Origin: Girardia tigrina
Taxonomy: Eukaryota
DNA length: 60,291 nucleotides
Direction: 5' to 3'
Assembly (NCBI GenBank): GCA_001938485.1
Contig: MQRK01248386.1
Location: 63,151 to 123,441, forward strand
Positions within the stretch are counted from its first letter, which is position 1; every line of letters starts with the position of its first letter. Shown one piece after another: positions 2,673 through 60,103 of this stretch. The position numbers were made by a program, and so were the translations under genes. The notes beneath the pieces are model-generated. The model saw nothing but the letters and a program-made list of their open reading frames with translations, was not told the origin of the DNA and did no database searches.

Positions 2673-3179
2673 TGTGAGAATATTTTAAATTGTCTGAATA
2701 TGTAAATGTATTGATGTTTTATGTTGATTTGAGTATGCTGAAATTAGAATGGTGATTCTCCCACCCAGATGGAAATTAGTATTTTTAAAATTTAAAGTGA
2801 TTGACAATTCGAACATAATTAAAATAATAATTTGATGAGATCATATTTTTTAAATTAACAATTAAAATTAAGTTTAATATTTTTCATAAAATTTAAATTA
2901 AATTCAGTTTCGAAAAATTGATAACATTTTTTATTATTTTGGATTTTATTTAGAAATGATTTAAATTATTATTCTTAATTAATATTTTTAAAAATTAAAA
3001 TTTTAAAAATATTTAAGAAAAATTGTTCGAATAATAATGATTGAAAATAGAAATAATAAAACCAATTAGTAAGATGTCAAACGGTGAAAGATCTTCTTGG
3101 AGTTGTAATGACTCTAAATGTGATTGTAATAAAAATTCAAATGCGCACTACTGCTCTATCCGGATCGATATGCTCAATA
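2673..3179 (+). mobile_element. Solo LTR (Ty3/Gypsy family A)
   Basis: Starts tgtgagaat. Shares ttctcccacccagat and ttgttcgaataat motifs with the 4895 and 14332 copies. Internal ORF MSNGERSSWSCNDSKCDC..IDMLN. Confidence 0.7.
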
Positions 3180-3858
3180 GGAATTAAACCCTTTTGAATC
3201 TAAACCCTTTTTGAATCCCTAGGTTTTTTTAATATAAGTAATACTTCCGTTTTCTAATTCAAAAATCCTTTAAGGTAATATTATTAATTAAATAATAATT
3301 ATGTTAATCTTGTTGTATAGGAAACTAGCTTACCATCCTCTTTGCACCTGAATCTCTTACTTGCAGACGAAAACAATCAAAATTTAAAAATCAAGGTCTT
3401 AATAACAAACTTTAGGAATTAATAACGAATATTATTGACGTAAAGAATTAATTTTAATTTTATTTTAATTAGTGTTTATGCCAATTTCCTCTGACATTTA
3501 TCGAATTGAGTACTGATGGCTTTTTCCTTTCAATTTCTTGCATTACTTTTTTTTGAGAAAATATAATTAAAATTTCTTCGGTAATTTCCGATTTTCTTTT
3601 TATATCAATTTAAATGGAAAATTTCTCTTTCACTTATTAAATTGAATTAATTTTGCCAAAATAATAGAAATAATAATATTAATATTTACAATAATAATGG
3701 AGATAATTTGATTCAAAAGTGATAATAAATAAAGAATTATTTTTTTATAATGGCAATTTTGAAATTGAATGTGCTGAACTAATTATGTTCTCATGATCGG
3801 ATCACGTTGGATAGCAAATCATAATAAAATTTGTAAATAAAGGTTGTCGCACAATATA

Positions 3859-4161
3859 CCGGATATTTCCGTAAATAATCCCTGGGACATCTTTCGGAAA
3901 ATCGTATTTTTTTCGAGAAAATGGGCAATTAAAATAAGCTTAAGATTCTTAATTTAACATTACCAACGTCTAATATATTTAAACAAATTTTAATAATATC
4001 TTTTTTGTAATTTAAGTTGAATCCTCATTGTACAAAGTAAAAATGAATATACTTCATTTTATAAAATCTATTATAAAATGAAAAATAGTAATTTCGAGAA
4101 ATTTTCCGAAAATAATCCCAGCTAAAAATACGCTCATGGGCTTATTTTCGGAGGAATGCGG
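3859..4161. mobile_element. Tc1/pogo-like MITE
   Basis: Imperfect TIRs (ta)ccggatatttccgtaaataatccc / gggcttattttcggaggaatgcgg(ta), flanked by TA. Confidence 0.6.
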
Positions 4162-4894: not shown

Positions 4895-7460
4895 TGTGAG
4901 GAATAATTTAAATTTGGTATGTTGAGTTTAGTATTTGGAAATGTGTTTCTCCCACCCAGATTGAGAATTGATATTTTGGATGTTCACGATAAATAATTAT
5001 TCGAGTATAATTTACATTTTAAAGTACAGCATAAGATATTTAAAAAACTTTAAAAATATCAAATCGTTTCAAATTTTAATATTAAAAATTTAAATAAAGT
5101 AAATAACTTTTAACTAAGTTTTAAATTAAATAAATGTTCTTTCTTTAAACAAAATCATTTTTTAAATAAAATTAATATGTAGATAAAATTATTACCAAAA
5201 TTACAAAATTTGAACTTTAAAAATAAAATTAGAAAATAATGAACAATTTGTTCGAATAATTGTTTATTAAAAAACATTAACTAAAATTTATCAATTTAAA
5301 ACGATGTCGAATTACGAAAGCTTTGCTGAGAGTTGTCCAAAAGACATTTCTAATTGTATTGAAAATAAAAGTTCGAAAACCCATTATTAATAACATCAAT
5401 ATGAGTTTTAAAACATTTATTAATATCACAAGCGCATTCACTATTTGACATATTTCTTGATCAATATATTTCTGAATTCATACTAATTATTTTCAATAAA
5501 TGAAAATCTGTTAATAAAAATTATTAATTATAAAGAATCTAATTGGTTAAAATTAAACCTAAATATTTTTTTAAAAAGAACATATTAAATTGATATATTA
5601 AAATTTTAAATTACATTAAAAAATAAATAATACATTCAAAAATTATTTTAATTAATTACTTCAAAATTAAACTAAATTATTTTTAATTAGTAAAAATCAA
5701 AGAAAATACCAATCATCCATCTGTGCAGGAGAGGCACAATCCGAATTAACATACAACATGCACAATATCAACACACAATTCAAAGCATTCCTTACACCCA
5801 TGTTAGTGTTCTTAATATGGCGACACACGACTACGTGATTCCGAACATTAGAGGTCCGGATATTTTTGATGGATCAGAGGCAAAAGTTGAGGCATTCATA
5901 ACGAACTTTAACAGGTATGCGAAGATAAGGGGATTTTCAGAGAAGAGGAAAATCTTATTAGCAACACCATATATGACTCCGGATGTTATAATAAAATATG
6001 AAGCAGCGGCAGGTTAAACATGTGAAGAGAAACTAAGATCCGCGTTTTCAAAGGAAAAATCTATATAAATAAAACTGAAACTGCAAAATTACTCGAATCA
6101 ACGGTATTGAGAACGGCCAACATACACAAATAGGAAATACCCAGTAGCAGAAGTGGATAAACTAGATGGCGAATTGTACATAAGAGAAGACTATAGAAAA
6201 GAGGACTTTTCTGAAGGAACGTATAGAAGAGAAGATGGCAAAAGACTGGAATAACCCGTAGGTAATAGAAAATTCAGGAATGATCAGGAAAATGAGGACG
6301 CACGATCACCGGGAGAAGTGATCAGTGTGCTACAATAGGAACTCAATGTAGGTGTATGATTGATTGTATGTATGAATGAGAATTGGATCCAGTGATCCAA
6401 CAGTAACATTTAGAAAGGTTAATGAAATCATTGAAAAGTTAATTGAGAAAAAGTTAGGTAAAAAATAACTATCAAATTTGGTCTACGCTAATCTGATAGA
6501 TGATTAGAACGTACAGAAAGAAATAGCTGTCAAGAAATCTGAAGAGATTGAAGACATTCAAACGAGAATGTTCGAATATGATAAAAATAAAAGAAACTTT
6601 CCTGTAGAAGCATGTAACACAAAAAGAGAAAATGAATGGAGAACAGTGCAAAATAAAAAAGAACACCAAGATCACAGAATGAGAAATTCATAGAACAAGA
6701 AACAAGAAGAAATTTTAAAGTTCGAAAAATTACCTGCTGGGCATGCCACTATGAAAGGCATGTTAGAAGAGGGTGCCCAAACGTGAAGTGTAGTCATTGT
6801 AATAGAAAGGGCATTTAAGAGCACAATGTTATGAAAACCCTAATAGGTTTATGGAGCGTGATCAATGGAAAAAAGATAATTGAAATAATCGATGGAACAA
6901 CATGCAAAATTACTCGAATCAGCGGTATTGAGAACGGCCAACATACACAAATAGGAAATACCCAGTAGCAGAAGTGGATGAACTAGATGGCGAATTGTAC
7001 ATAAGAGAAGACTATAGAAAAGAGGACTTTTCTGAAGGAACGTATAGAAGAGAAGATGGCAAAAGACTGGAATATCCCGTAGGTAATAGAAAATTCAGGA
7101 ATGATCAGGAAAATGAGGACGCACGATCACCGGGAGAAGTGATCAGTGTGCTACAATAGGAACTCAATGTAGGTGTATGATTGATTGTATGTATGAATGC
7201 GTTTGTGATTGTATGTTTGATGATGTGTTTGAAAATATTCCTCTGGAGATGTGTAGATTAGATAATTAACCTGAAGAAGACGATGAAATATGTGCTAGTA
7301 TGGATATAGAAAATGAAAAAAAATAAAAAAAATGTTGAAGATGTATTGATATTACCGAAGTTTAACATAAATTATAAAGAATTGTACACCAAGTATAGAG
7401 TTCCGAATAAAGAATAAAAATGTCAAATGCATGTTAGATACAGGAGCTCGAGTCAAAACC
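4895..7460 (+). mobile_element. Degenerate Ty3/Gypsy element: 5' LTR (4895-5817), PBS, gag with two CCHC knuckles, start of protease
   Basis: The LTR ends cttaata, immediately followed by tggcgac (PBS). Gag reads MATHDYVIPNIRGPDIFDGS. Two frameshifted CX2CX4HX4C motifs at about 6733-6830. Protease MLDTGA at about 7431-7448. Internal direct duplication of about 295 bp (6082-6378 vs 6903-7199). Confidence 0.8.
5385..5796 (-). mobile_element. Solo LTR inserted in inverted orientation inside the 4895 LTR
   Basis: Minus strand reads TGTAAGG...TTAATA. Perfect 5-bp TSD CCCAT at 5380-5384 and 5797-5801. Confidence 0.85.
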
Positions 7461-8600
7461 ACGAACCTAATAAATATTTTATCAGTTTATTGCGTCATTT
7501 AATTATTAGGTTGTGATGAAAGTTTTTACAAATTAACATATAATTAAAATCAAAATTTTTACAATAACAAGTGTTTGTTTTCATTAATTTAATAGCCGTT
7601 ACTTTCAATTATTTTTCTCCAAGGAGGCTGCAACAAGGAAATTCTGCGGTGGTAAAATCCGGCGTTTTCAGGTCGAAAACTTTGAAGAACGCGTTTCATG
7701 TGTTTTTCTTCAATCAAGCGGCATCCGCGAAGGAAATTTTCTAGTAACCAGAAAAGATGATAATGGACTGGGACAACTTCTGGGCTATATGGTGGTTACT
7801 TAAGAATATCACAACCTAATTCTTCAGGATTTTGGCGTGATCGTCGTGAAACATGAGGTCTGACGTTGTCTTCTTGAATACCACGAACATGCAAAGCGGT
7901 CTGGAAACGGTCTGATTGATGCAGTAAAATTCAGCGAAGAACGCATCGTAAAGGCAAAATACACTCCGGAGTTTATAATAAACTCCAAGTTTATGTTAAA
8001 CTTCGGTAATATCAATACATCTTCAGCATTTTTTTTTATTTTTTTCCATTTTCTATATCCATACTAGCACATATTTCATCGTCTTCTTCAGGTTCATTAT
8101 CTAATCTACACATCTCCGGAGGAATATTTTCAAACACATCATCAAACATACAATCACAAACGGTAAATTCTTTGCTTTGGATCCGCTTCAATGGAATGGC
8201 GAAGAGCCCGTTCGTCATTGTTTTTTTGGCATCCGGAGTGTATTTTGCTTTTACGATGCGTATTACCAGAGTGAAATCTAGCATATAATCGGAAAGAAGT
8301 TCTTTCAATCTTGGAACTTCGGCGGTTGCTAGCGCAAATATTTTAAGACGCTTCCGCTGCTGTACTACCAAGTTTGAATTCGTGGAAAATCAAGTTGCAG
8401 ATTTCTTCAAGCTTTTTTGACATTTTAACTTGTCCTAAAATCAATTTATTTTAGAGAAGACTATACAATGTGAATGAAAAGGCTGCTATAAATATAATAC
8501 TTATAATAGTTATAATATATAAGACAAAATTAAATTAAAAAATTTATTTACAGTTTTTAAATAACTGAAAAAAATTTCGTTCCAACCTTATTATTATTAT

Positions 8601-8990
8601 TGTTAGAATCTGTGGGATCACCACTCGGAGAAGAACAAATATCCATCACTAAATTATATTTATTAATCACACTTAATTATTGGATATTGAAAAATATTTG
8701 GAATAATTGATTGATTGCGTTGATATTCTAATAATTCCAATTTCCACTCTGATTTTCAATTCCCGGAAAAATTCTGCCAATTATTAAAACAAATTTGTTT
8801 CTTATTTAATTTACATTCAACGTATATTCTATTTATTTAATTATTTCTTTAAAAAAATGAGGAACTAAATTTCTAAAGCTTTGTTTTTTTTGTTAAACCG
8901 GTATTTTATAAAATTATATTTAATTAACTAATTTAACTTAATTTCGCTTGCCTGTTTCAAAAATTTTCCGTTTACTATTAATTCCTAACA
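8601..8990 (-). mobile_element. Solo LTR (family B)
   Basis: Perfect TGTTAG...CTAACA termini and TSD attat (8596-8600 / 8991-8995). Similar start to the LTR after the PPT at 49983. Confidence 0.75.
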
Positions 8991-10234
8991 ATTATTATTA
9001 TTATTAAAGAAGAGGATCACGCCTCTAAAATACATTTTATTCGATAATTACACTAATCATATTCTTTTGAAAATAAATTTGGAAAATTAAACTTTTCTGT
9101 TACGATTTTCAATTAAAAAGAAATGAAACATATTTTAATTGTGTCGTGTTTTATAGAAAAAAATTATTTTATTATTATTGTAATTGTTCAAAAAAGCTAT
9201 TTTAGGTTTTTTATGAGATTTCGAAAAGCATCACTCTAGTTAAATGTATTTGTAATTCAATGGATCTCTTAAATTATTTTCCTAAAGTATTGAAGTTGAC
9301 GCCCTAATTTGATGAGCTCGCGTCCTGGAAAATATTTCAATGACACCTGCTCAATCCCGTTAGGCCGCATCACTTGCTGAACGAAATTTGTTTGCAACAC
9401 TGCTAAATTACATTTGCTCACTAAGGACAAAAATGTGAAGAGAATTCATTCAAATAAATTATTGCGATAAGTATCCTAAAGATGTAGGACTTTAATAAAT
9501 AAATAATGATAAAATAAATAAATACTTAAATATGTACATAGCGTTTATGAAGTCTATTTTTTCCGCACTAATTCTCATTTATATGTTTCAAAGCAAAAAA
9601 GTTTTATATAAATGATATATTTAAATTGGATATAAATAGCACTTTTAACTTTTTTAATGTCATTTTTTACAAAGTAAATGTGTTTAGTGTTTATTGGTAT
9701 TTATTGCAACCTTCCATTCCCTGAGGGCATTCACAAATCCTTCCTTGATTCTTCAAAGGTAAGCAAATGAAACGACAATTTCCGTATTGGTTTTGGTTTG
9801 AGCAGGAATTGGTAACTAAAATATTCATTAATAATAATAGTGATGATAATAATAAAATAAAAATAAAATAATAATAATATTAATTGTTTGATCATATCTT
9901 AAAGGGGGGTGAAGTGTTCGATCCTGTCAGGGAGAGCGATGGGAGCGGACCATACTTTGTTTATCAATAGTAAAAAAAAGAGAGAAAAATGATTTGTATT
10001 TTTTTCGATTTATTTGTTAAGAAGCATTGTTATTTCGTGTGTTTAGATATTCCTTGTTTGAAAATGGAAAGAAAAAGGTTGTTTGTTTGAATTAATCAAA
10101 AAAGTGGAATGTATGGAAACTGGCGAAAATTTATGAATAATAATAATAAGATATTATAAAAATAAAAAATGCATCGAAGTGGAAATTGATTTGTTTATTT
10201 TAATCTGGGATTTCGTAGAATTTTAATTGCAACA

Positions 10235-10924
10235 ATGTCACGCGTTGAAACGTTGAAATTCTTCTCATGTTTGGACAGATACAACACAGTTTCATCTGAA
10301 ACTATGAAAATAACACTAAAATTTCCTTTCATTGTTACAAGAAATACAATCCTGGAGTACGTTTATAGCGATTATTTCCACTTTGATACAAAGCTCGAAT
10401 CGATTTCAAAAACTTTAAAATTACATCTGTCATCAGAAAACGTTATCGAATCTTATCTCGAGGAATACTACCACAAAATCAAAACCATCTGGAATCATTT
10501 GACTCTCCAGTCTCATTGGAGTCTCAGACAAATCGAATCGTATCTCAAAGCTGTATATAATTTTGAAAGAGTATTGAATGAATGTTTGACGCTGATCGAA
10601 TGGTGTAAATCGGGAGATCAAAACTACAACGAAATAACCGAAGAAAATCTCGCGAGTGTCAAAACCGTCCAACCGGTCGCTCCAAGTGATGTCGGCAAAA
10701 CCGACGAGAAAGGATTCTTAATCAATCTAATCGATTCCCCGGATCGCGTAAAATTCAGTGGCTTAGTAACAGCAGCGTTAAAAGTGACCGACGGGGTGCT
10801 GGTTCTTCTCGATTGTGTGTTGGACGTGTGCGTCTCTCTCACTCGTCCCAGTGTCTCCATATTCTCAATACCGGAGCCCCGCAGCTGCGCCGTATTCACC
10901 CTCTTGCCATCAACATTAATATAA
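10235..10924 (+). CDS. Intronless 229-aa chimeric ORF containing an eEF2 G-domain fragment (possible captured or processed gene chimera)
   Basis: About 10625-10833 encodes [59 protein letters not shown], versus eEF2 [41 protein letters not shown]. The N-terminal part is unrelated and looks helical or spectrin-like. Confidence 0.55.
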   Translation: [229 protein letters not shown]

Positions 10925-11175
10925 TTGTAGAATATTAAAAAAGGTAATAAAAATAAATAGCTTAAATTATTTTAAGAGCCTCTTTATATGATAACCTTTA
11001 GTAAATAAATATAAAATTTCTTTTGTTGAAGAAAAATATAAATAAATAGCAACATGAAGTATATAACTTATCAGACGGGACTGACAGAAATAAATATAAA
11101 TGGATTTATAGTAAATATACGAAATATAATAAAAAAGATGTAAATGTTGGAGGAATAAAACATTAAAATAATAAT

Positions 11176-11577
11176 TGTAAGGATTATTTTCGAATATTGT
11201 GTGTCGAGGGGTTTTGTATGTTGTTTTAATGATTGTAATGATTCATTGATATTATTATTATTATTATGTGAAAGTAATTTAATTAAAAAATCGATTTTAG
11301 ATATTTAATAATTGCTATTTTAAGTAATTAAACTTAGTTAATTAAAAAAGATAATATTTTCGAAAGGTATTATTAGTCTTACCAAGTTTGATTTTAACTC
11401 ATCAATTATTATTAATCAAATTATATTTATCGATTTTACATTTCTCAAATATTAAATAATAATTATTTACAAAATTTATAAATAAAGAATTATAATGAAT
11501 TCTGTAAGCACTACTGATAATTGTTGTAATGACAATTCTGTTTGGGTTATAAATAAATGTTTAAATTGTTATTAATC
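11176..11577 (+). mobile_element. Degenerate solo LTR
   Basis: Starts tgtaaggat, ends gttattaatc, TSD ataat. Carries a frameshifted Cys-rich MNSVSTTDNCCND ORF. Confidence 0.55.
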
Positions 11578-14331: not shown

Positions 14332-14869
14332 TGTGAGGAATATTTTAAATTTGGTATGTTGAAATTGGTTTGTTGAATTTTTTATGTTGTGTTTCTCCCA
14401 CCCAGATGGAAAATTGATATTTTAGATGTTCACGATAAATAATTATTTGAGTATAATTTATATAATTTAAATTTTAATTTATATTTTAAAGTACAACATA
14501 AGATATNNNNNNNNNNNNNNNNNNNNNNNNNNNNNNNNNNNNNNNNNNNNNNNNNNNNNNNNNNNNNNNNNNNNNNNNNNNACTAAGTTTTGAATTAATT
14601 AAATATTCTTTCTTTACATAAAATAATTTTTAAATAAAATTAATATGTAAATAAAAATTAATACTAAAACTACAGAATCTGAATTTTAAAAATAAAATCA
14701 GAAAATAATGAAAAATTTGTTCGAATAATTGTTTATTAAAAAACATTAATAAAAAATTTTCAATTTAGAAAGATGTCGAATGACGAGAGTTTCACTGAGA
14801 GTTGTCCAAAAGACAATTCTGATTGTAATGAAAATAAAAGTTTGAAAACCCATGTTGGTGTTCTTAATA
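14332..14869 (+). mobile_element. Solo LTR (family A), close paralog of the 4895 LTR
   Basis: Aligns closely with 4895-5817 once the nested insertion is removed. Ends ggtgttcttaata. Contains an N gap. Confidence 0.8.
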
Positions 14870-15165: not shown

Positions 15166-15592
15166 TGTGAAGAATATTTTAAATTATGCATGGATCTGGT
15201 GTATGCGATAACTGATCAGTCGAACAGAATTAGCATAACTAAAATAATGACAATTTAATGATCTAATAAAATTTTAATTTAAAATTGATAATATTCGTTA
15301 ATTTCTAATATAAATGATATTTGTCAAAAATTAAAATGAACATGTTTAATGTTGTTTTAAAAGATATTTTTTGAGGTTTGAATAATTTTAAAACTTGTTT
15401 TTTTTTATTATTTTTATATTTTTATGAAATATTTAAAAGTTAAAAGAATAATAAATGTTAGGAAATTGGTTCGAATAATCAATATAAAAAATTCAGAAAT
15501 AACACTAATTAGAACGATGACAAATGGTGAAAGAACTTCCGAGAGTTGTGATGACTCTAAATGTAATAGTAATTGTGTCGGTACTCTTAACA
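15166..15592 (+). mobile_element. Solo LTR (family A)
   Basis: tgtgaagaat...ctcttaaca, with the gttcgaataat motif and ORF MTNGERTSESCDDSKCNSNCVGTLN. Confidence 0.7.
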
Positions 15593-19100: not shown

Positions 19101-21143
19101 AATAATGTAGAAAGAGTTTTGAAATTCCCATTAATCATCCTTGCTTTACAAGTTTTAGTGCTGTGTGGATTTTGGGAAAATTGTATAAATTTTTGAATTA
19201 AATAAAAAATAAATTTCAAAAAAATTTACAAGATAACATAAATGAAAGTATAATGATTGTACGATTAAAATAAAATATATTAATATATATTTTTAATAAA
19301 AAAATGGAAATTTATTATAAAATAATTAAAATTAAAAGTGGTAATTAAATTTGATGAAAAGACTTTTGCAAATCAAAATAAACTTAATAAGTTTAAAATA
19401 AAATATGTGTAATGAAATTTTAAATAAAATAGTTTGATTACAAATTTTTTAATGTAAGACTTTAAGAATTTTCAAAATAAACAAATAGAATTTTAATTTG
19501 AAATAAATAATTTAAAATAATCACTTTAATATGGTTTGAAGTAAAATATTTTTAATTAAATAATAAATTTAAAAAAATGAAATATTAAATTATTTATCTT
19601 TATTTAAAATTCCTTATTTTGCAAGAAAGAAATGAAAAGTGTTCCTCGGAAATTTATTCAAAAAAATTTGTTTAAAAAATATGTTATTTTATTGTTATAA
19701 AATAAAAGTTTTTAAAAATGTCAACTTCTGATTGTTCAACTACGAATTATCACGAACCTAACAAGTGCTAATTAAAAGAAATTTTTCTTCTTTCCTAATC
19801 ACGTCTCTAATACAAAATGATTCACCATTTAGAGTATGTTGTACATGTAGAGCAACTTCTATGTCAGCCAGTATTTTTGGTTCAGAAGGTCGTTGTTCAT
19901 GCCAAATTCTTTTTATTTTCTTTCAAATGGTTTATTAAGTATATGCAGTGGAGTAGATGCTGTTAAAAATTGAATAATTTGGAATGGTAAATTAGAGTAA
20001 TTTTCGCCTCATACTTATTATCCTATATATTTCCCATATAAATCTTGGTTAATGTATTATTAAACATACTAATTTCCGGAGGACAAATCCTTGCTTTGTT
20101 CTAAAAGAATAAAAGAAATTATTTTTAATTATCGTTAAAGTCGTCCAGCTATCATGGCTTGAGTTTAACTATTTTAAGAGATTTGTTTCATTTAATTATT
20201 CAATATTTTCAATATTATAATCGTTTATGATTGTTATTTTCTAGAAAAAGGTGTAAGTAGCGTTTATGTCACTTTCATTATTAATAGATTCAATGCTCAT
20301 AACTCAACACAAAACTTTAAAAGGATTTAAATCAAAGAATTAAATTCAACAGTTTTGATTTTTGGGATTTTAGAACTTTGGAATTTTGATCTATTGGGAT
20401 TGTGTCATTCTTCCTTATGATCCGAACCCATTTTAATAAATATAAAATTTAATTTACTTTGATTTTTTTGCCGTCCATAAAACTTTAGAAGCAACTAATC
20501 TTAACGAAAAAAGAGTTCCCATATTGGCTTCATAAATTTTATCGAGAGTTTTTGAAGTTGCTTCTAAGGCTTCATCATGAACAAGAATAAGTTCTTTCAC
20601 AACTGGATGAAGACATAAAATCACATTCAAGGATGTGATCTTATTGTTTTCAACCCAACATAACTTGTCAGTTACGATATCATATATCAAGGCTTCTGGA
20701 GGGACAGTAAAATCCGTGATTAAAGGTCGATATCCGGAACCATCCATATATGCAAAATCAATTTTGATAATGTTCTTGTTCTTACAGATCCAAAACATTT
20801 CACTATTAATAAGATATGTACAAAATAAAAATTAAACATAAATCATACGCATCTTTCGGATTTAGAGTAATTTGACTAGGGGACGTAAGAGAAGAAAATA
20901 TTACTTTCTCAAAACCTCTATAGATATTTATAACACCAAGACTTTTTTCCGTTTCCGATGTCCAAAATAAGTTGTCCGATATCCAATCGACAGCCACTCC
21001 GGAAACCTGGATGTTTGGAAGAAGAACCGGTTTGATGGACTCAGGGGAGGAATATGATGAATGGAATATACCCAACTGGTTCTTGAGAATCCAATAGATA
21101 GACTTTGTTTGGCAATTAGATTCAATGATAGATATTTTGTCAT
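16173..21143 (-). CDS. YWTD/LDLR class-B beta-propeller exons and terminal exon of the nidogen-like gene
   Basis: ISIIESNCQTKSIYW, GVAVDWISDNLFWTS, AYMDGSGYRPLI, LIYDIVTDKLCWVE, SKVLWT. The terminal exon 16290-16173 joins in phase 2 after a ttattttttag acceptor. Confidence 0.8.
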
Positions 21144-24100
21144 CTAATTATAAATAAAATATAAACTTAAAATATAATAAAACTGATGTAATAAAAGGTG
21201 TTTTTTTCTACAAATCAATTCATAAACTTTTAAAAGTAAAAAATGTCGGAAGAAGGCGACAATTTAGTAATGAAAATATTATTAAAATATACAATACGAC
21301 TTTGTGTCGCGGAGAGAACTTAAGAATTATCTCTTCTTTTAATTAATTATATTTATTTTAATAAATAAAAAACAAATTCATCAGATCTTTAATAAGTATT
21401 AAGGGATAATTTGTTTATTCTCGTAAAAAAATTTATAAAATTAGAATAACGGTATTTTAGTTTTATTTGTTTCTTGCTCTTTCCCTCGGGTTATTAAATC
21501 CCTTATTTCTTATTTTCTTTACTTTTGCATACTTCCAGATTTAATTTTTGAACGAGTTTTATGAGGACTTTCTTTAATTCTTTGTATTTCCAAAATGTCT
21601 TTGTAAGATCTTAACAAACTTCTTTACTTTTTCTTCAAATTATTTTTCGTTAAATTAACTTTTTAATAAATTATTCTTGTATGTTTGGAATGGAATTTAA
21701 AGTGATTTTAATTATCATGATTAATATGATTTAAAAGGAGTTCATCCATAATCATCCAAGGTCTTCTAAAAAAGACAATGGTGCTGGTTTAGGATTTTAC
21801 TATTAACTATAAAAATAGCAGATTCACTCCTCAAATTATCGGGTATGTGGATCTGCTATTTTTATTGTCTTTAACTTTAAAGAAACTAATCAGGTTAACC
21901 TAACTAGTACAGTTCGGTGAACCTGTTTAGTATGTTAGAAATAAAATAAAAAAATTATCAAACGTAATAATAAAATAACGGTATTGTTATAAATTATAAT
22001 TCGATAATTCTAACCGATACAAAAAAATGGAACAGAAATTCACAGCTGGCGATAAAATATTGTTGTTGACGATAAGATATTCAGTCAGTCGCACTTTCAG
22101 ACAGTAGTATTCAGTTAGACGTAATTATGACTTTTTGAATGTTATTGATCATAGAAGTCAATATTTCTATGGTTTATTTAAATTTAATTTAATTTTAGAT
22201 TCTCTATATTAATTTATATATTGGCGTAAATGACAACTTTATTTGATCTTTCTTCTTTTCGCTCGCAACACAAACTACACCAAAAAAATAATCACGCAGA
22301 CACTCCAACACTTCTGGAGGTTGTTGCTACGACAAAAAATAATAAACTCATTCATCCCTTGAATAAAAACTAAAAAAATAATAATTGACATAAAAAAATA
22401 AAAATACATCATGATCATACACAAAAAATAACAGAAAAATAATATGAAAATAACTAAAAATCGTTTGCTATAAAGACAAACAAAAGAAATACATACAACA
22501 CCCGAAAATCACGATGTACAACGAAAATATAAAAAAACAAAAAGAGAAGAAAGACTCACATTACACAGCCCCCCCTTTAAAAAACAGTATTTAGTGCGTA
22601 ATGTTTGTTTGAAGTAACGGTTGAATATTTCAACTTTTCCGTTGGCTTGTGGGTTGTAGGGTGTAGTTTTAATTTTTCTAAAGTTGAATTTCGAACAGAG
22701 ATTGTTGAACTGAATTGATTGGATTTGTTCTCACTGGTCTGTCACTAGTCGTTTTGGCGGACCGTACCATGAAATCCAGCATTTCTCAAATTTACTGCAA
22801 ATAGTTGAAGCTGAGATGTCTTTAACTGGTGTCACTTCAATCTAGTTTGTTTTCCTATCTATGATACAAAATATGTATCTATAATCTTTGTTTGGAGGAA
22901 AAGGGCCTATTAGATCCAGATGTAAAAATTCTACCTTATCTAGTTCATCATAATTGATTTTTTTTATTTTGTGTTTCTTGGTTGTTTTGTTTTTATTGCA
23001 TATCAGGCAGTTTTTGGTGAAAATTTTAACGTCTTTGTGGATGTTTTTCCAACAACACTTGTTGTCTCAGCATGTTGAATGTTGTTTCAGCGCCGTAATG
23101 ACCGATATCATATATGTTTTTAATGCATTGCATTCTTAAATGAATTGGAATCAGTGGTCTGTTTGTTCCGCTAATTGATTGGTCGAACCAAATATTGTCT
23201 ATTCTTTTTAATTTAAGTGAAGAATTATTGAATTCAATTATTGCATCTTGTTGTTTGTCGATTAGTTCATTGATGTCTAAGAAATTTAAAAAAGTGTTTC
23301 GTTGACTGTGTTGCGCGACAAAAAATCTGCTACTATGTTGCTTTTTCCAGGTATATAATATATTTTACAATCGAACTGTGATATGTAACAGGTTTGGTTT
23401 AGTTGGCGTGGGCTTGGGTTTTTTAGATCGAGTGCATGTGTTAATGGTTTGTGATCAGTGTATATATTAAAGTACTTGTGTTCTAAATATTCTTGGAAAT
23501 GTTTTATTGAACGGAATTTTTCCATTAATTCCCGATCGAATGTTGAATATCGAGTTTCTGTTGGTTTTAGTTTCTGAGAGAAAAAAGCGATAGGTACCTC
23601 TGTTTTCTTTATGATTTGCGATAGTGTAGCACCGATTGCGCAATTCGATGCATTTTTTGTCAAATTTAATTCGGTATTCTGTTGTATCATATGTAATTTT
23701 GTAATTTTTGCAATTTCATCTTTAATTTGTGTGAATGTTTCCAGACTCGAATTGAACCATTGTATTGTTTCTAGTTTCTTTTTGTTTTTTATCATCTCTG
23801 TTAGTGGAGTTAAAATTGCAGAACAGTTTGGGATAAATTTGTGGTAGAAGTTCACCGTACCATAAAATCTTTGAATTTCTTGTACGTTCTTTGGAGGTTG
23901 TATTGATTTGATAACTTCAATCTTTTATTTGATGGGGTATATTATCCAATTTTCGATGGTATGACCCAAGAAATTAATTTTTTTTGTTTACTTCGCATTT
24001 TTCGTAATTTAAATTGAGGTTATTCGTTTTTATAATTTCTAATACTCTCGCTACGTGTATTTTATGATGTTCCAGATCCGTGCTTCCAATTAAAATGTCG

Positions 24101-39888: not shown

Positions 39889-39937
<49 letters not shown>

Positions 39938-42900
39938 ATAAGTGACCGTATGTCACTACAATATATAATTGCTTTAAATCATTCATTTAATAATTTTAAT
40001 TTAATTTATTCGAAACTAGTATTTAATTTTAAATTATTTGAAACATTTAATTCCAAATAAAAAAAATTAGAAATTATTTCAAAACTCGAAAATTCTAATT
40101 TTTTAAAAATTACATTTTAGAAATTTTTATTTATTTAAATTATATTACGAAAATTTATATTAACATTGAAGTTGAAAATTCTTGTACAAGATGTATAAGT
40201 TAAAATTATAAATCCCAAATTCTTATTTTTAAAAAATATACTTTAAGTTTTTCAAATTATTTAAATTTTGATCAGCAAAATGAAAATTACATAACTCATA
40301 ATAATTATCATTAATCCGCTTTACCAAAACATTAAGGAAATAAAGTCCTTTATTAGTCTCATTTTAAATTATGAACTTTTTATCAGGATATTTTTCATTC
40401 ATAAAACTAAAAAATGGTTTTATATGAACTTCTTCAACACCAAGAAAAATTCATTCAAATTTTATTATAAATCAAAGGTAAATTTCCTATGAACAAACAT
40501 ACTTTATTCTCTGCAGATTACATAAAAATGGATACAAAATTAGGTGCTAAAGGTGACTCCATTGCCAGTTTCTTATATGTTCTTATACAACACAAATAAA
40601 ACATCCTTTGTAACAAATATCAATAGATCTAGCATCACCTATGGCGTAAACTTCAGATTTTGTGAATTACATTTTATATCACCCTTTTCAGTCAAAAAAC
40701 CAATTCAAAAGTTTCATAAATTGGAAAATTGGTGGATAAACTTGTCACATCAAATGATACCATCCACTCTTTTTCATTCTAAGCAGACTGATTTAAAATT
40801 CAGTCTTAAAATTTTAGGCTTTCCTCAACGTCTAACTGATTTAAAATAAAAAAATTAAACAATTTATCCAAAATTTTACCAAGTCTTTAGGGAAAAGTTC
40901 ACATCATTGAAATATATATATAGATTGATAGATGATATATAAAGATCAAATCTTACACTTTGTTAGCCATATATAATGAACTTTTGCAAACACAATTTCC
41001 TCTGTCGCAATTCATTGTAATGTTGTCACAAATATCTGGAAAATAGAGACAATTTCTTCGCTGACAAATACCGTTAGCATCCAGTTGGAAGCCTGCATCA
41101 CATATACAATTATTGGTGATAGGATTACAATGCTGATTTGGGGGGCACTCAATACATTTTTCTAATAAAAGCGAATTAATTGAAATAAAAACCTTGATTA
41201 AGCTGTAACTTGTGAACACATTAATTGAGGCATATTTACAGTGCAGGGGATTACTCTTGGATTCCACACAACACTGATAAATTCCAGAGTCACCGACGGT
41301 TGCCTTTTGAATATTAAGTTTGGCAGATGCTGATTGTCTTATGAAATTCATGGACATTAAAGGAGAGATTTTTCGCCAGCTTAGGTAGTTTACATTTCCA
41401 ATACCATTTTCATAAAAACAAATAATCTCAGCATCTTTTGATTCTGGTATATCAATTTTGTTCGGCATTATAACAATATTTGGTAGTTCTGTTATACCAA
41501 TTAAAAATGGTAACAAAAAGATATTAATTATTATCATAAATATTATCCACATTAAAAGAAATGATTGATGAAACGGTACAAATTTATTAATTTATATAGT
41601 TATCTTTATTATTTAAAATTTGTCCATAAGAAAAAATGCAAACACCATACTACCCTAGCCTAAACCGCATTTTTAATCACTTTTTTTTAAATAAATGAGT
41701 ATAAAATATGAACTAATTGCACGATTTGTATAAAATAAAAATTTCTATAATACTTTTACAATAAAACTGGTAATCTCTAAACAATAAACATTTATTTCAA
41801 TCTGGAAACAGTTTGGTTCAAAAGTTATCGGACAACTTAGATGTGTTTTATAAACAGCGGTAACTACAGTGAAACATCTTCGATAAAAAAATAAAACCAA
41901 TAACGACTTTTATACGTTTCTCCATAGTAGCTATTAGGGTGAGTCATAAGTTGTGGGGCACTTTTTATTAAAAATTAAAATGTTCATAAAACAACGCACA
42001 ATAAAGATTATGATTCGAAATAAAGTCCATTATGTTCAATACATTGTNNNNNNNNNNNNNNNNNNNNNNNNNNNNNNNNNNNNNNNNNNNNNNNNNNNNN
42101 NNNNNNNNNNNNNNNNNNNNNNNNNNNNNNNNNNNNNNNNNNNNNNNNNNNNNNNNNNNNNNNNNNNNNNNNNNNNNNNNNNNNNNNNNNNNNNNNNNNN
42201 NNNNNNNNNNNNNNNNNNNNNNNNNNNNNNNNNNNNNNNNNNNNNNNNNNNNNNNNNNNNNNNNNNNNNNNNNNNNNNNNNNNNNNNNNNNNNNNNNNNN
42301 NNNNNNNNNNNNNNNNNNNNNNNNNNNNNNNNNNNNNNNNNNNNNNNNNNNNNNNNNNNNNNNNNNNNNNNNNNNNNNNNNNNNNNNNNNNNNNNNNNNN
42401 NNNNNNNNNNNNNNNNNNNNNNNNNNNNNNNNNNNNNNNNNNNNNNNNNNNNNNNNNNNNNNNNNNNNNNNNNNNNNNNNNNNNNNNNNNNNNNNNNNNN
42501 NNNNNNNNNNNNNNNNNNNNNNNNNNNNNNNNNNNNNNNNNNNNNNNNNNNNNNNNNNNNNNNNNNNNNNNNNNNNNNNNNNNNNNNNNNNNNNNNNNNN
42601 NNNNNNNNNNNNNNNNNNNNNNNNNNNNNNNNNNNNNNNNNNNNNNNNNNNNNNNNNNNNNNNNNNNNNNNNNNNNNNNNNNNNNNNNNNNNNNNNNNNN
42701 NNNNNNNNNNNNNNNNNNNNNNNNNNNNNNNNNNNNNNNNNNNNNNNNNNNNNNNNNNNNNNNNNNNNNNNNNNNNNNNNNNNNNNNNNNNNNNNNNNNN
42801 NNNNNNNNNNNNNNNNNNNNNNNNNNNNNNNNNNNNNNNNNNNNNNNNNNNNNNNNNNNNNNNNNNNNNNNAATTTTTCCATAATTTTCTAAAATGTTTA

Positions 42901-44992: not shown

Positions 44993-45039
<47 letters not shown>

Positions 45040-48000: not shown

Positions 48001-51000
48001 TTTATATTTTACTAAAATATAAAATTCCTACCGGTTTGTACAACACATTTATTATTTTCCAGTTTGAATCCCGTTTTACAGATACATCTCAAATTATTAT
48101 CACTTGATTGTTTACAAACGGCATTTGGATCACTGCATGGAAGAGTCTGGGTACATTCATCCTGGGATCTACAGGAATCTATTCCATTACCGACCAATGG
48201 TTTCATGCAGATGCAGGTACCCATTATACATTCAGCTTTCAAGTGACATTTTGGATTACAAACTGCAAAATTAATTTTGAATGTCAGTATTTATTAACTA
48301 TCAGTAGATAAATTATGAACCAACGTCTCTTACCTATCGGTTGACAAACTGGAGAGTACGGTGTTTTTATGAATCCGGGTTTACATAAACAATCATAAAA
48401 TGGCATTGTAAAATGTTTCTGACACAATGAATTTGGATCTGCGCATTTGTCGGTTAAACTGCATTTATTGTCGGGGACGCAGATGAATCCGTTACCGGAA
48501 AAACCAATTTTACAAATACAGGTTCCGAGAATACAGACTGCATTCTGATCGCAGGATGGTACGCACGCTAAATGAATATTTTGTAGAATAACTCCTTCAG
48601 ATTAACATTTCTTTAGTATATATATTGGATTTTGTTTAGTTTTGTACCCGTAATGTGTACTGAAGGTGTGCAGAAAATTTAGAGTATGGACTATCTCAGA
48701 ATATAATAAAATAATTTGGGGTGACTTTAACACAAAATATCCACAAAATTACAATAAATGAGATACAAGAAAACAATATTGTAAGCCATAATAATGTAAA
48801 TGTAATCAAATGTAATCTTAGGTTTAGTAATAAAATTATGGTAATAAAATCTTTATTTTCAAAAAATTAAACTAAAATAATTAGAATATTTTGAATTTTT
48901 TCAAAAAAAAATATATAAATAAAGAAAAAATTAAAAAAAACTTTTCAAGAAATATTAATGAATATAATTAACAAAAGATGCGTCATTTCTAAAAATATTT
49001 TTGTAATAATATATTTCGACTGTTTTACTGCCATCTCCAGGTCACTGAGTTTTACCTCTTTTATTGATTATGTATTATTCTATTCTCACAGAAAGAAATA
49101 ACATTTTAAACTTAAAAATCAGTCATTTAAATTTAAAAAGATGTTTTTTAATAAATCACCTACTCCTTTGAGTTTGTGTTCGGACATTGTTTATCAGTGT
49201 AAGTTTAATGAGTGCAATGTCGCATACATTGGAGAGACTGCATTGGATTTTTGAGGACCACTTCCGGCCGTTCATGGAAAGAAGTATATGTTGGAAATCA
49301 TTGACAGATTCAGTAGATATATTAGTTTGACGGCTGTTAATAATCAAGACGAAGCAACGGTGATAAAAACCTTTCAACACAAGTGGATATATAAATTCGG
49401 AGCTCCAGCAAATATCCACATTGACAGAGGAAAAGTTTTTAAGTACCAGAGTTTTGGCGAATACGCGAAATCAATGCTGATGACAATACATTTTTCAAGT
49501 CCATATCATCATAATGCAAACCGGACAATAGAACGACAGTTTTGGATCATCTGGATGCTCTTAATGCTACATTAAAGGAAGGAGGAGGTTCAAACTGGGT
49601 TGACATCCTCTCGGAACTGAAGTTCAGTTTGAACGCTTCCAGGCAAAGTACTATTCGAGTAAGCCCAGCAGAAGTGATATTGGGAAAGCGTATCACATTA
49701 GATGGCTCTCGCCACTATGAGCTGGATAAAAAAAAGTTATAGAATATATTAAACAAAAGAACTATCTTAAAACAAACCAAGGAGTTATAACGAGAAGAGA
49801 GTTTCGGGAAGGAGATTTAGTACTGGTAAAGAGGGAAAATAGACCAAAAGGATCAGGCAGATATGAAGGACCATATAAAATCATCCGGAAAATACATGAT
49901 CGTTGCGTACAATTGAAAAATAAGACAGGGCTCGTAATAACGAGGAATATCGAATGGCTAAAGCCTTTTAAAGAAGGGGGGGTGTTAGGATAAGAGACTC
50001 ATATATTTATATTTATATCCATATCTATATTTATACACATAAGAGATCATAAATATTATTACAAATGCTCCTGAAATATCAATAGAAATATTAAAACAAC
50101 GTTTTAATAAAGATTTAAATAAATTAATAAATTTTTGTTATGTCTGATTCGACTTACAGTTCCCATTTGAAAACATTGGTAATGAATGGGTTAATATCCT
50201 TAATGGTAATAACTAATAGTATAATTTTTCAAAATTATTTATAAATAAATATAAAAATTTACATTTCGGTATACACTTTTGATCTTGATTTGTAAAACCC
50301 TCTGGACATTTACAAGAGTTAACATTATCTATTTTCGTACAAACTGATCCTGAAATCATACAATCTGAATCCTTCTGACATTCGTTAAGTTTTCGACATG
50401 AAGTAATCCCATCGCCGGTGTATCCAGGATTGCAAGTGCAAGTACCAAGCATGCAGTATGCGTTAGGATGACATGGCTGATAACAATCTCAAATAAAAAC
50501 AGTTATCCTTTACAGAATATGTAAATTAAAGTACTTACTAACAGGCAAGCAGTAGCCAAATTTGTACATAAAACCAGGCCTGCAAGTGCATATAGATTTA
50601 AAATTTGGCAATTTTACACAAATCTCTAATGGATTTTTACATGAATTTAATGTATTTACTTCACATTCATTCTTTTCAACGCATGTTGAGTTAGAATTTA
50701 AAACAAAATTTGATTTACATTGACATTGTCCCCCAACACACTCTTCATTTGCCTGACATGGTTTAGGACATGCTAAAAAGAATAGGTATACACATTTTAT
50801 AGCAAAGTAACTTACGAATTGGCGAACACAAATTATTGTTTAACCGAATATATCCCAATTTACACTGACACTTTAGTGATCCTGATTCCATAGTACAAAC
50901 TGCATTATTATCCCTGCAATCACTGTCTAGTCTACATTCATCTTTGGGTTTACATGACTTCCCATCCCCAATAAGATTAGGACCGGGACATGTACATCCA

Positions 51001-54000
51001 AGTGATGGACTACAAATGGCGTTTAGATGACATACAGAGCAATCATGACAATTCAAAACTCCATCTCCTTGAAATCCTAATCGACATTGACATACTTTAT
51101 TTCTACAATCTGCGAATATGTGACATTTATCCGGACATCCTAGTATTAATAATACTAAAAATTCTCATTTCCAATTTTTACCTTCTTCAACACATTGAAA
51201 TACTGATTTTGGAACAAATCCCTTTCGACACATGCATCGTTTTCCTTGAAACAATGCATGGTAAACACATTTATGATTGGGATCTGAGCAATCATTTTCA
51301 CTTTGACAATGATCAATTGGTACACAAGTCGATCCATTCGTAGAAAGACTATAACCATCTTTACAAACACAAATTCCAAGTTCGCATTTTGCATTTTTAT
51401 GACAACTTGGATTGCATGCTTTTAAAGAAATTGTTGAAAGAATGTAATAAAATGTAGTAATATTAAACAATAAAAAAATTGATTTTATGAATTTTTAAAG
51501 TCCTTTACTCTGATATAGTCATTTACTAATTCATTAAAATACATTATGTAAAATAAATAAACCATCAAGAGAAGGAAGCTGAAATTGTACGGACATCAGA
51601 CTGTTAAGAGAACTCACACATTTGACAGAACATTTATTACATTCACAAATTTTATCATCTTTATGATGATTAATATTATTGCTTTCACTAGAATCCATCA
51701 ATCAATTTTCAATATCTCCCATTATAATCTGAACTATACTTGATAAGATTATTTTATTTAAAAATATTTAATTTAAATTTGATTGGCTAAAATAAAATAT
51801 TTTTATAAACATTTTTAAACATTAATTTGATTTTAATTATATAAAAATTTACAAAAATAAATCATTAAAATTATTTAAAAGTTGCAATAATAAAAACTAA
51901 AAATTTGAATATTAAATCTAAATTTAAATAAATTAGTTGCAGATTATAAAAAATTAAATATTGATAATCCATCTGGTTAGGAGAGACACAATCCCAAATC
52001 AACATACAACATTTAAACATGCAAACACTACAAAAACAATTATACACCAAATATTCCTCACACAGACAACAAATGTACTGGTCAAGGTTATGATTGAAGG
52101 AAGAGTGGAAGGAGAAAGACTAAAGAGACGATTGACATACGACCCAAAATAGAGTGGATTGAGGATGGAAGGTCTAAAACGAACAGCATCAAATAAATAA
52201 ATGTGGCGAAGGCGTGTGTATAATTGATAGAAAGATGTAAAATTTATAAATTCATTGTAGATATTTCAATTTCTTATATCAAATTATCGATATTTTAAAT
52301 ACTATGTCAAATATTTATGTAAAAATATGGATTGTTATCAGTCTTCGGAACGGCCGAATTGTGCACATTATAGATTTCATTCATAATAAAAAAATTCTTT
52401 TAAAATTTATTTGTAAGACAATTGTGTACTTTAAATTACTTACCCAAATCTCTGAATATCCAAACAAATTACTCAATACTTGTTTTCTTTATTTTAGTAT
52501 AATTCATCGTTATTTTGAAAGAATCATTTTATAGGGTTATTCATAATTATAAACCCATCTATTGAAAATTATATACCTATTTATTCCTAATTATATACCC
52601 ATCTAGTCAAAATTATATACCCATCTATTCAAAATTATATACCCATTTATTAATATTATAGACAAAATAAATATTATTAAATTATTTTTTAATTAAGATA
52701 GAACAAAGATATCTTAAAACGACAAACGAATAATAATGATTTATTTTACCAAGAATTTAATTAAATAAAATCTTCTCTTCTTCTAGCTCTTTCTAGCCAT
52801 CTTCTCATATTTATAAAAAAAGTTTTGACATTCCTGCGAATAATCATTTCTCGAACATAAAATCGAGTCTAATGTAGCCTCAATACCTATTTAGATTACC
52901 AACCATATATAATACAAATATTTATATACATTAAAATTGTTTAATTATTTAACTTAATTATTCTGATAAAATTTTCTCAAAGAATTTTACATTATTATTC
53001 AATTTTGTTAAATTAATTTCATTTCCCGTTCACTTTTAATCTTTAACATAGATAAATTAAAAATCACCAAAAAACTTCGAAATATTGTATAGAGTTAGCT
53101 CATTCGTTGGTTTTACGAAACGCAAGTAGACGACAAAAGGCAAATCTACACCGAGATATTGTGTTTTCTATTGATTGTATCGTTCAGTCATCCTCATCCT
53201 CGGCATTACCATCATCATCATCAATGACACAAATATATCAATATCAGAATCGAGTTCTCGTAGTAAACAAGTATTACACGGAAGATGCAAGATATGTTAT
53301 GACACAGCAGTCGATTATGAAACAAAGCATAAAGCCAGCAGAATTAATTCAAAATGTTGTCGCTGTGACTTCTTCATTTGTAAGAAACATTCAAAAATCG
53401 AGATTGTTTGTGATAATTGTGAATTGGACAAATCAGATTGAATATACTTCAAAATTAATTAGCACTTGTTATTTGAAACAAATTTTTTGCTTCTTTTCTT
53501 TGATTGCTTTTATGGACATATTTGTCCATGCATGGTATAATATGTAACTATTTCCCACATGGTGTTTGTAGGGTTAATTATTCAGTAATAATTTCGTTGT
53601 TTTTGAAATATAATTTAGAAATTTTAACAGTTAATTATGAAATTAATTATTATATTTGATGAACAAGAATTTATATCACAATCGATGTACCTCACACATT
53701 AAATTTGAAAAATCCACAAATTTTACTAACATTTTTTATCAAAATTAATCCATGTGTTCATAAATTAAGAATTGCTGCCAAAAGTGTCTCATATATTGTC
53801 ATAAATATTTACTTTTACAGGATAGAAGATTTTAATTTTTTACAATTAAAATTATAAACTTACCGATTGGAGTACATAAAGAATTTTGGAAAGTAAATCC
53901 AGGTTTACATATGCACTTTTTGAATTTTTCATTTCCAACTAAACATACAGCATTTCGGTCCCTGCAATCGCTGTCATACTGACACTGGTCTTCCAATTGA

Positions 54001-59391: not shown

Positions 59392-59448
59392 CTAAAGAAA
59401 TACTTTATTAAATAATTTAACAATCAAAAGTCTGTTAAAAAGAAGACA

Positions 59449-60103
59449 TGTAAAATATGTGAGATTTATAATGAATATAATTTAAAAGAAAGTTTAAAAA
59501 ATTGAATTACTAAAAAAACTACAAAATTTGATTGAATATTCAATATATAATTTATAATATATTATATATATATATTCAATATATAATTGTTGTGATTTAT
59601 AAATGTTTGAACGTTTTCAAACAAAATTTATTTCTATGCCGAAAGAAGAAAATATTACTGCCACATACGGTGTCCTTAACATGGCGACCAAGATCTCAAA
59701 AATATTCCTCAACAGAGCTGTGCCTGACAGGTACACGAAAGATGAGGATATGGAATACAAATGGTTCGTCGAGCTGATTAACACCAGAGATAGGATGAAA
59801 CCTATGTTCCTACACTATGATTCTATAAAAGTATAAAAAGAAGTTGAAAACAAAACCGAGAATTTTGACGGCTGACTGCAGAAATTGTTGTTAAGAAACC
59901 TTCAATATTCGAAGATTTATCAATTGGGATCCGAATCTTTAGAAGATTTTTTCATGACAATTAAACAGTTTCTGATAAGGTTTTCATTATACTGCCAGAA
60001 CAATGAGGACATCTTTAATGAATTGGAAATATTCGATAAAAAGGACACTGAAGATATAAAAGAAAAAATGAAAAAGAACAAAACAATACAAATAAATATA
60101 TAA
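59449..60103 (+). mobile_element. Ty3/Gypsy 5' LTR, PBS and degenerate gag start
   Basis: LTR end ggtgtccttaaca followed by tggcgaccaagat (PBS-like). The ORF ..YGVLN|MATKISK reads through the junction; further gag-like ORF at 59885-60103. Confidence 0.65.

What the first reader, a model, noticed from the sequence alone, without database searches (positions are those of the whole stretch)
2673..59836. Gypsy LTRs encode a length-variable, mostly Cys-containing leader peptide kept in frame with gag across the LTR/PBS junction
Seen: in both elements with internal sequence, the last LTR base is the A of the gag ATG (ctt aat A|TG GCG AC at 5817; ctt aac A|TG GCG AC at 59681), so the PBS itself is read as M-A-T. 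In nine LTR copies an upstream ATG ORF reaches that last base in the same frame (3n+1 nt): 3074-3179 (35 codons), 5304-5817 minus the insertion (32), 5451-5385 minus strand (22), 14773-14869 (32), 15517-15592 (25), 51698-51602 minus strand (32), 59603-59681 (26), 8646-8601 minus strand (15) and 19718-19763 (15; LTR start not located). One degenerate copy (11495) is off by one base. Examples: MSNDESFTESCPKDNSDCNENKSLKTHVGVLN and MSNSECACDINKCFKTHIDVIN. The length differences are multiples of 3 in otherwise indel-ridden AT-rich LTRs. Known: gag starting inside the LTR is described for yeast Ty1. Inference: this is a selected LTR-encoded N-terminal Gag extension or alternative start, and every solo LTR leaves a portable promoter plus ATG micro-ORF in the host genome.
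Basis: partly seen in the sequence, partly recalled or inferred. Interest (0 to 1): 0.78.

Follow-up and report, generated by a model that had tools for sequence, protein, structure and literature searches.

The report
Movable gag start inside gypsy LTR
A large group of jumping genes in this animal genome keeps its capsid gene's reading frame open backwards through the primer site into the terminal repeat, so the protein likely starts inside the repeat, as in yeast Ty1; the extra front piece varies freely in length, overlaps a likely RNA-end signal and is missing in some relatives, so it is probably a tolerated extension, not a special peptide.

Summary
Observation confirmed and much wider than the window. 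The repeats are LTRs of compact Ty3/gypsy elements primed by tRNA-Arg. The LTR's last A plus the primer site's TGG form an ATG in gag frame (2,930 genome matches, 17 in the control). An upstream in-frame ATG lies inside the LTR in 106 of 133 copies of six families and in 19 of 25 family representatives (2.7 expected), metagenomic relatives included. Out-of-frame ATGs are scarce just before the first in-frame ATG but common inside the leader, which fits cap-scanning. Selection acts mainly on frame: leader codons are weakly constrained, length runs 8-35 codons, 6 of 25 representatives lack it, and it is predicted disordered. The conserved Asn-Lys is an AATAAA hexamer, and the Cys codons probably come from a UG-rich poly(A) cassette. 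A Cys-peptide function and a 'portable micro-ORF' are therefore not supported. Transcription start and translation were not measured. The layout is known from Ty1 (copia); my ten paper searches found no gypsy case. The scan noted a similar gypsy layout before in another genome (e1-9837252).

The parts
2673..3179 (+). Solo LTR, relative of family A; leader ORF 3074-3179 (35 codons), AATAAA 51 nt before the end; no target duplication
4895..5817 (+). 5' LTR of a decayed family-B element; its leader (ATG 5304, AATAAA 5364) is interrupted by a nested LTR; last base 5817 is the A of the junction ATG
5385..5796 (-). Nested solo LTR of family J with exact 5-bp duplication; leader 5451-5386 (22 codons), AATAAA at -36
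   Evidence: same family in L299 and L337
5818..5824 (+). Primer-binding site, 7 nt complementary to the 3' end of tRNA-Arg(ACG), read as part of M-A-T
5817..7170 (+). Broken gag remnant (first open stretch 66 codons; internal duplication 6082-6378 / 6903-7199); end approximate
8601..8990 (-). Solo LTR of family E with exact ATAAT duplication; leader 8646-8602 (15 codons), AATAAA upstream of the ATG (-63)
11176..11555 (+). Degenerate solo LTR; ATG 11495, 20 codons to a likely LTR end; right boundary uncertain
14332..14869 (+). Family-B LTR with an N gap; leader 14773-14869 (32 codons), AATAAA 14833-14838, out-of-frame ATGs at -89, -41, -17
15166..15592 (+). Solo LTR, relative of family A; leader 15517-15592 (25 codons) lacking the hexamer; this end was not found joined to a PBS in the genome
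19718..19763 (+). Leader (15 codons) at the end of a family-D variant LTR; LTR start not firmly located (candidate 19453); AATAAA at -62
51602..52062 (-). Solo LTR of family C with exact GTCTG duplication; leader 51698-51603 (32 codons), AATAAA at -36; lies sense upstream of EGF-repeat exons, run-on frame stops after 22 flank codons
59458..59681 (+). Short 5' LTR (family W, seen once); leader 59603-59681 (26 codons, no Cys, no AATAAA)
59681..59836 (+). Junction ATG, 9-nt PBS match (59682-59690) and 51-codon gag-like remnant

Best explanation
These are Ty3/gypsy retrotransposons whose gag reading frame runs through the tRNA-Arg primer site into the LTR, and Gag likely starts at the first ATG that a scanning ribosome meets there, so the leader is probably translated as a dispensable, predicted-disordered N-terminal extension kept in frame by selection. 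Shown: the LTR's last A and the PBS's TGG form an ATG in gag frame in every family seen; most families have a further in-frame, stop-free ATG 8-35 codons upstream; out-of-frame ATGs avoid the stretch just before that ATG but not the leader; some families have no leader. Inferred: transcription starts upstream of the leader ATG; the junction ATG is the default start where no leader exists and an internal Met where one does; any ATG in the short R-U5 region must be in frame and stop-free, which fixes length modulo 3 but not sequence; the same bases serve as poly(A) signal (AATAAA, UG-rich flanks), integration end and primer site, which explains the Asn-Lys and most Cys; the PBS has shrunk to 5-14 nt in most families while doubling as codons.
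For: Element type: LTR pairs 92-97% alike in 9 of 16 loci with a junction, exact 5-bp duplications in 4, polypurine tract, gag with zinc knuckle, pol PR-RT-RH-IN in a shifted frame. Leader intact in 23/32, 20/25, 16/24, 15/16, 13/14 and 19/22 copies of families A, B, C, D, E, G. Family leader lengths 24, 30, 36, 39, 42, 54, 57, 66, 78, 90, 93, 96 nt; 19 of 25 representatives against 2.72 expected. Shared versus single-copy changes: leader N/S 22/12 vs 112/24 (ratio 0.39, p=0.034); gag 0.27 (p=7e-6); upstream LTR 1.2 (p=0.84). Out-of-frame ATGs: 7 in 1,411 nt just upstream of the start, 22 in 1,122 nt inside leaders, 52 in 3,174 nt further up (p=0.001 each; p=0.023 and 0.0007 with 17 deeper groups). 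Five long-leader families have an out-of-frame ATG 11-19 nt before the junction ATG, which makes it a poor first start. Family F (4 copies), whose gag is broken in every copy, has lost the frame. Five public Gag proteins are open from the LTR ATG to the gag end. AATAAA in 89 of 96 intact long leaders; 88 of 89 Asn-Lys pairs are AAT AAA. Residues 1-36 have pLDDT under 50 and the fold begins near 41. Primer identity: tRNA-Arg(ACG) genes in L382 and CCA-bearing tRNA copies joined to LTR ends.
Against: No transcription start, poly(A) site, ribosome footprint or peptide was measured. With AATAAA only 36-39 nt from the LTR end, a short R could put the start of transcription downstream of a -96 ATG. 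Families A, C, D and G have another ATG 24-38 nt above the leader ATG. Between-family leader dN/dS is 0.36-1.2 near saturation, with flat divergence over codon positions. The p=0.034 test is small and could reflect RNA-level constraint. Shared indels within leaders were too few to test (1 in frame, 1 not) and shared stops were absent from the control region too. The ATG-poor zone is not significant at 30 nt in the 11 metagenomic families alone (p=0.28, 0.56). I chose the representatives, several families rest on 1-3 copies, and all are related.
Confidence: 0.7

Rival explanations
1. Two starts are used by leaky scanning, giving a long and a short Gag, and the long form has its own role (targeting or restriction).
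For: The junction ATG has A at -3 in 22 of 25 representatives and G at +4, a better context than many leader ATGs (A at -3 in 10 of 19); Met33 is at least 90% invariant in 15 Gags.
Against: The junction ATG is forced by the LTR end and PBS, so its conservation needs no use as a start; 3-5 out-of-frame ATGs lie between the two starts in families A, B, C and J; leader residues are barely conserved.
Confidence: 0.13
2. Only the junction ATG is used; the leader lies in U3 or is an untranslated by-product of the poly(A) cassette and LTR end.
For: Six of 25 representatives have no leader, four of them metagenomic families, and m331 keeps an intact gag while lacking the leader part of its sister m329; AATAAA near the end allows a short R; weak codon-position signal.
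Against: Does not explain ATG-headed, stop-free frames of twelve different 3n lengths (19 of 25 vs 2.7), the ATG-poor zone that moves with the leader ATG, or out-of-frame ATGs just before the junction.
Confidence: 0.1
3. The gag mRNA is cis- or trans-spliced at a T-rich AG just upstream of the leader ATG, which makes that ATG first.
For: TTAG lies 1-4 nt before the ATG in families A, B, E and some MQ copies.
Against: Absent in C, D, G and most metagenomic families; a contig of RNA run X8 crosses the site unspliced and no joint or loose end is listed there, though 235 loose-end rows were not shown and DNA may be present.
Confidence: 0.04
4. The leader is a functional Cys-rich peptide (metal or lipid binding), and solo LTRs give the host ready-made promoter plus micro-ORF modules.
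For: Cys exceeds composition in families C and MQ (p=0.008, 0.025), and Cys18 is shared by four families.
Against: Not enriched in B or MTSY (p=0.27); Cys codons are TGT 249 to TGC 15 and sit in UG-rich sequence around AATAAA; no Cys in D, G, H, W or the seven metagenomic leaders; none of the window's solo copies joins a long frame.
Confidence: 0.03

Closest known systems
Ty1 of Saccharomyces cerevisiae (Ty1/copia, Pseudoviridae)
   Same: PBS lies inside the GAG ORF and is short and bipartite (PMC4974528; passages and section 5 read); that GAG begins within the LTR is recalled.
   Different: Copia domain order and tRNA-iMet primer. Here: gypsy order, tRNA-Arg, an ATG built from the LTR end plus PBS, a start that moves between families from 0 to about 96 nt upstream, and overlap with AATAAA.
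Ty3 of S. cerevisiae (Ty3/gypsy, Metaviridae)
   Same: Best solved-structure match of Pol (7q5b, E 8e-99); about 5 kb, gag and pol in different frames, PR-RT-RH-IN.
   Different: The Ty3 PBS is adjacent to the 5' UTR and in the 3' UTR, not in GAG (PMC4974528, section 5); Ty3 uses tRNA-iMet and a +1 shift, whereas pol here lies in the -1 frame.
mdg1/412 lineage of Drosophila gypsy elements (recalled; search did not retrieve a paper on it)
   Same: Recalled: tRNA-Arg primer site beginning TGGCGAC and short ORFs at the 5' end.
   Different: Recalled: their short ORFs are separate from gag, which starts far downstream; here the frame is gag itself. Not tested.
Unnamed gypsy clade noted earlier in this scan (e1-9837252, another genome)
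   Same: By its note: compact element, gag starting in the LTR, PBS translated, many unnamed relatives.
   Different: By its note: 121-bp AGTT-type LTRs; here TGT-start LTRs of 120-540 bp. I could not compare sequences.

Membership tests
Ty3/gypsy LTR retrotransposons (Metaviridae) | Paired LTRs with target-site duplication | tested here: met
   3' LTR found in 9 of 16 loci with a junction (23 examined), 92-97% alike; exact 5-bp duplications in L110, L115, L119, L120
Ty3/gypsy LTR retrotransposons (Metaviridae) | PBS complementary to a host tRNA 3' end, and PPT before the 3' LTR | tested here: met
   5-18 nt match to tRNA-Arg(ACG) in 24 families; tRNA copies with CCA at LTR ends; purine tract before 3' LTRs
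Ty3/gypsy LTR retrotransposons (Metaviridae) | Pol order PR-RT-RH-IN | tested here: met
   Pfam hits on natural ORF pieces of L110, L105, L035; Ty3 Pol best PDB match
Ty3/gypsy LTR retrotransposons (Metaviridae) | Gag with capsid fold and CCHC knuckle | tested here: inconclusive
   zf-CCHC passes its cut-off in L041; Foldseek ranks dArc and Ty3 capsids first but none reaches E 0.001; atlas look-alikes are retrotransposon Gag clusters
A named gypsy clade (Mag, CsRn1, mdg1, Gmr1, Saci2) | RT phylogeny with reference elements | not tested
   No reference set on hand; of the 120 Pol relatives listed, one carries an NCBI name (30% identity) and the close ones (47-95%) are unnamed metagenomic proteins
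Ty1/copia | Integrase before RT; tRNA-iMet primer | tested here: not met
   RNase H precedes integrase; primer is tRNA-Arg
Ty1-like layout (works like) | gag frame open from inside the LTR across the PBS | tested here: met
Ty1-like layout (works like) | RNA starts upstream of the LTR ATG and translation initiates there | not testable with these tools
   Only assembled contigs of runs were available; they show neither ends nor strand
Errantivirus (env-bearing gypsy) | env ORF after pol | tested here: not met
   Internal region at most about 4.2 kb and filled by gag and pol; pol runs to the PPT in the intact metagenomic relatives

The most novel reading that the evidence does not exclude
A widespread, undescribed gypsy clade has almost no non-coding leader: the last 100 bases of the LTR are at once Gag codons, poly(A) signal and integration end, and the primer site is translated. 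The junction ATG is a built-in default, and competition between premature polyadenylation inside the leader and read-through, or between the two ATGs, would set how much Gag is made and in which form, with solo LTRs pouring out stop-less leader RNAs.
Probability: 0.2. Interest if true: 0.75.

Novelty: new variant of a known kind. Interest (0 to 1): 0.5.

Why it matters
It extends the Ty1 layout (gag read through the primer site) to a large animal gypsy group and shows how a start codon can wander within an LTR under a simple rule: first ATG in frame, no stop. Dozens of families with leaders from 0 to 35 codons are a natural series for studying overlapping codes (protein, poly(A) signal, integration end, primer site) and for locating start sites from sequence alone. 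For annotation, gag in these elements should not be clipped at the LTR edge, and short Cys-rich ORFs in such solo LTRs should not be called host micropeptides.

Tried and rejected
Frame +1 as control: always closed by the TAA in the LTR end, so uninformative; frame +2 was open in 13 of 133 copies against 118 of 133 for the gag frame. Within-family indel spectrum in leaders: too few events. RNA: only contigs; a contig of RNA-library run X8 spans 33 nt of leader and about 630 nt of gag, and LTR bins are roughly 20-30 times deeper than gag bins in X1 and X2, but DNA cannot be excluded and ends cannot be read. Splice-acceptor idea: not supported, not excluded. RNA folding of six leader regions: z -0.35 to -1.57, nothing significant. 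Polyadenylated retrocopies that would map the cut site: 0 found in the loci held. Run-on length of solo-LTR frames (29 ends, median 20 codons) was set aside because some are 5' LTRs with variant PBS. A TGTTYRAA motif as start-site marker: found in 14 of 25 representatives at inconsistent distance. First gag tree had a family-A copy mislabelled MTSY; redone, leaving out H, W, F and m323 (short frames). tRNA scan of 12 loci found no genes because those matches were LTR tails or PBS. Paper searches found no gypsy element with gag starting in the LTR; phrase matching is narrow, most subscription papers and Repbase-type records are not held, and no supplements were read. PMC4558846, PMC12471100, PMC3601003 and PMC11410931 (passages only) did not mention the layout in the passages shown.

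Full report
Observation. The window lies in a 1.43-Gb, AT-rich genome; Ig- and EGF-like exons point to an animal. Earlier scan notes call it a flatworm; I did not test that. The junction pattern LTR end + ATGGCGAC occurs 2,930 times against 17 for the control, 1,719 times with a gag-type continuation; three other family patterns gave 104, 79 and 164 matches.

The element. Of 23 long loci, 16 showed the junction and 9 a 3' LTR, 92-97% alike; four had exact 5-bp target duplications, and a purine tract precedes the 3' LTR. Natural ORF pieces carry a zinc knuckle, protease, RT, RNase H and integrase in gypsy order, with pol overlapping gag in the -1 frame. Ty3 Pol is the best solved match. Close Pol relatives are unnamed metagenomic proteins, so the clade is unnamed here. 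All genomic copies examined are decayed to some degree.

The primer. The genome has tRNA-Arg(ACG) genes. LTR ends of families A-E are sometimes followed not by gag but by a copy of that tRNA's 3' end with CCA, up to the whole tRNA in L378; two tails carry a changed base where the modified A58 is expected. This points to tRNA-Arg as primer even where the PBS matches only 5-9 nt; the match is 5-18 nt over 24 families. With no spacer between LTR and PBS, the last A and TGG always spell ATG, and in every family seen that ATG is in gag frame.

The leader across copies and families. In six families with 14-32 copies each, an in-frame, stop-free ATG leader is present in 106 of 133 copies; A, B and C were sampled largely by gag similarity, D, E and G by junction pattern. 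A scan of metagenomes gave 60 loci, 14 with a junction, all opening a gag frame. Taking one copy for each of 14 genomic and 11 metagenomic families, 19 have a leader of 24-96 nt against 2.72 expected; window copies extend this to 105 nt. Six have none: K (one copy), F (four copies, gag broken in all), m317, m320, m323 and m331. On a Gag tree of 21 families the leaderless ones fall in three places, and m331 is the fully supported sister of leader-bearing m329, lacking the LTR's 3' part. The leader is therefore common but dispensable. Five public Gag proteins are open from the LTR ATG onward, though their starts are gene-caller choices.

What is selected. Changes shared by three or more copies, compared with single-copy changes, give a ratio of 0.39 in the leader (p=0.034), 0.27 in gag and 1.2 in the LTR upstream. 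Between four families with 32-codon leaders, dN/dS is 0.36-1.2 with no third-position excess, against 0.05-0.34 with a clear excess in gag. So residues matter little. Position matters: out-of-frame ATGs are 0.5 per 100 nt in the 60 nt above the first in-frame ATG, 2.0 inside leaders and 1.6 further upstream, and leaderless families other than F have their nearest out-of-frame ATG 59-175 nt above the junction. Families A, B, C, MTSY and J have an out-of-frame ATG 11-19 nt before the junction ATG. This is what cap-scanning predicts if the RNA starts shortly above the leader ATG (inference). The model of P0004 leaves residues 1-36 unfolded and begins the helical domain near 41, so an extension there is plausible without cost.

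The Cys and Asn-Lys. In 96 intact long leaders, 89 contain AATAAA, mostly at -36 or -39, and 88 of 89 Asn-Lys pairs at that place are AAT AAA; over 192 junction copies the hexamer peaks at -30 to -39. Cys codons are nearly all TGT and flank it in UG-rich sequence; other codons in the leader are also biased to A/T endings, so this is suggestive only. In families whose ATG lies downstream of the hexamer (D, G, m321, m326, m328, m329, m330) the leader has no Cys; E is an exception. I read the motif as the poly(A) cassette overprinted on the frame (inference; no cut site mapped). It implies a short U5, and that a solo-LTR RNA of the long-leader families would be cut inside the ORF.

RNA. Four runs were laid, all as contigs. 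One RNA-library contig bridges leader and gag and another crosses the candidate splice acceptor unspliced, but DNA may be present and ends cannot be read. The central step, where transcription and translation start, stays untested.

Comparison. In Ty1 the PBS lies in GAG, whereas in Ty3 it lies outside (PMC4974528; passages and section 5). Ten searches found no gypsy element with this layout, a weak negative given the library. The scan's own notes report it for other gypsy and microsporidian elements; these are unchecked leads. Verdict: real and selected, a gypsy variant of a known layout, with a movable start and overlapping signals as the new points; the peptide and portable micro-ORF readings are not supported.

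Noticed in passing
L029, L236, L377-L381; shorter tails in L001, L003, L026, L034, L037, L184, L230, L237: LTR ends followed by 11-76 nt copied from mature tRNA-Arg (with CCA; two with a changed base at the A58 position) and then unrelated DNA: likely integrated ends where the primer copy was not removed or was read past the usual stop.
   Followed up: partly
L382 (G000:C199729) and G000:C240781: Tandem arrays of tRNA-Arg genes about 430 nt apart; one copy in L382 has a GCG anticodon.
   Followed up: no
window 51602-52062 and 50763-51494 (minus): A family-C solo LTR sits in sense just upstream of EGF-repeat exons of a host gene; an Ig-like exon lies at 40953-41591. Possible alternative promoter, untested.
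   Followed up: partly
window 32000-38500: Several RT and C2H2 zinc-finger ORF pieces in both orientations, in direct and inverted copies: non-LTR retroelement remains.
   Followed up: no
window 23026-23924 (minus): RNase H of another gypsy-type pol fragment, not linked here to any of the LTRs.
   Followed up: no
window 10190-10924: 244-codon ORF ending in an EF-2/EF-Tu GTPase-like fragment (Pfam E 5e-5, below cut-off), possibly a captured gene piece.
   Followed up: no
window 7200-8162 and 28594-28903 / 38798-39057: A 133-nt inverted duplication beside the decayed element, which ends in protease codons joined to a family-D LTR end near 7472; and short inverted-repeat elements resembling MITEs.
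   Followed up: no
L324:60-181: A 122-nt LTR that is stop-free in gag frame over nearly its whole length, with five in-frame ATGs.
   Followed up: partly
G000:C189409, C195683, C180258, C181691, C227028: Pairs of LTR-PBS junctions 110-510 nt apart, suggesting tandem LTRs or very short non-autonomous units.
   Followed up: no
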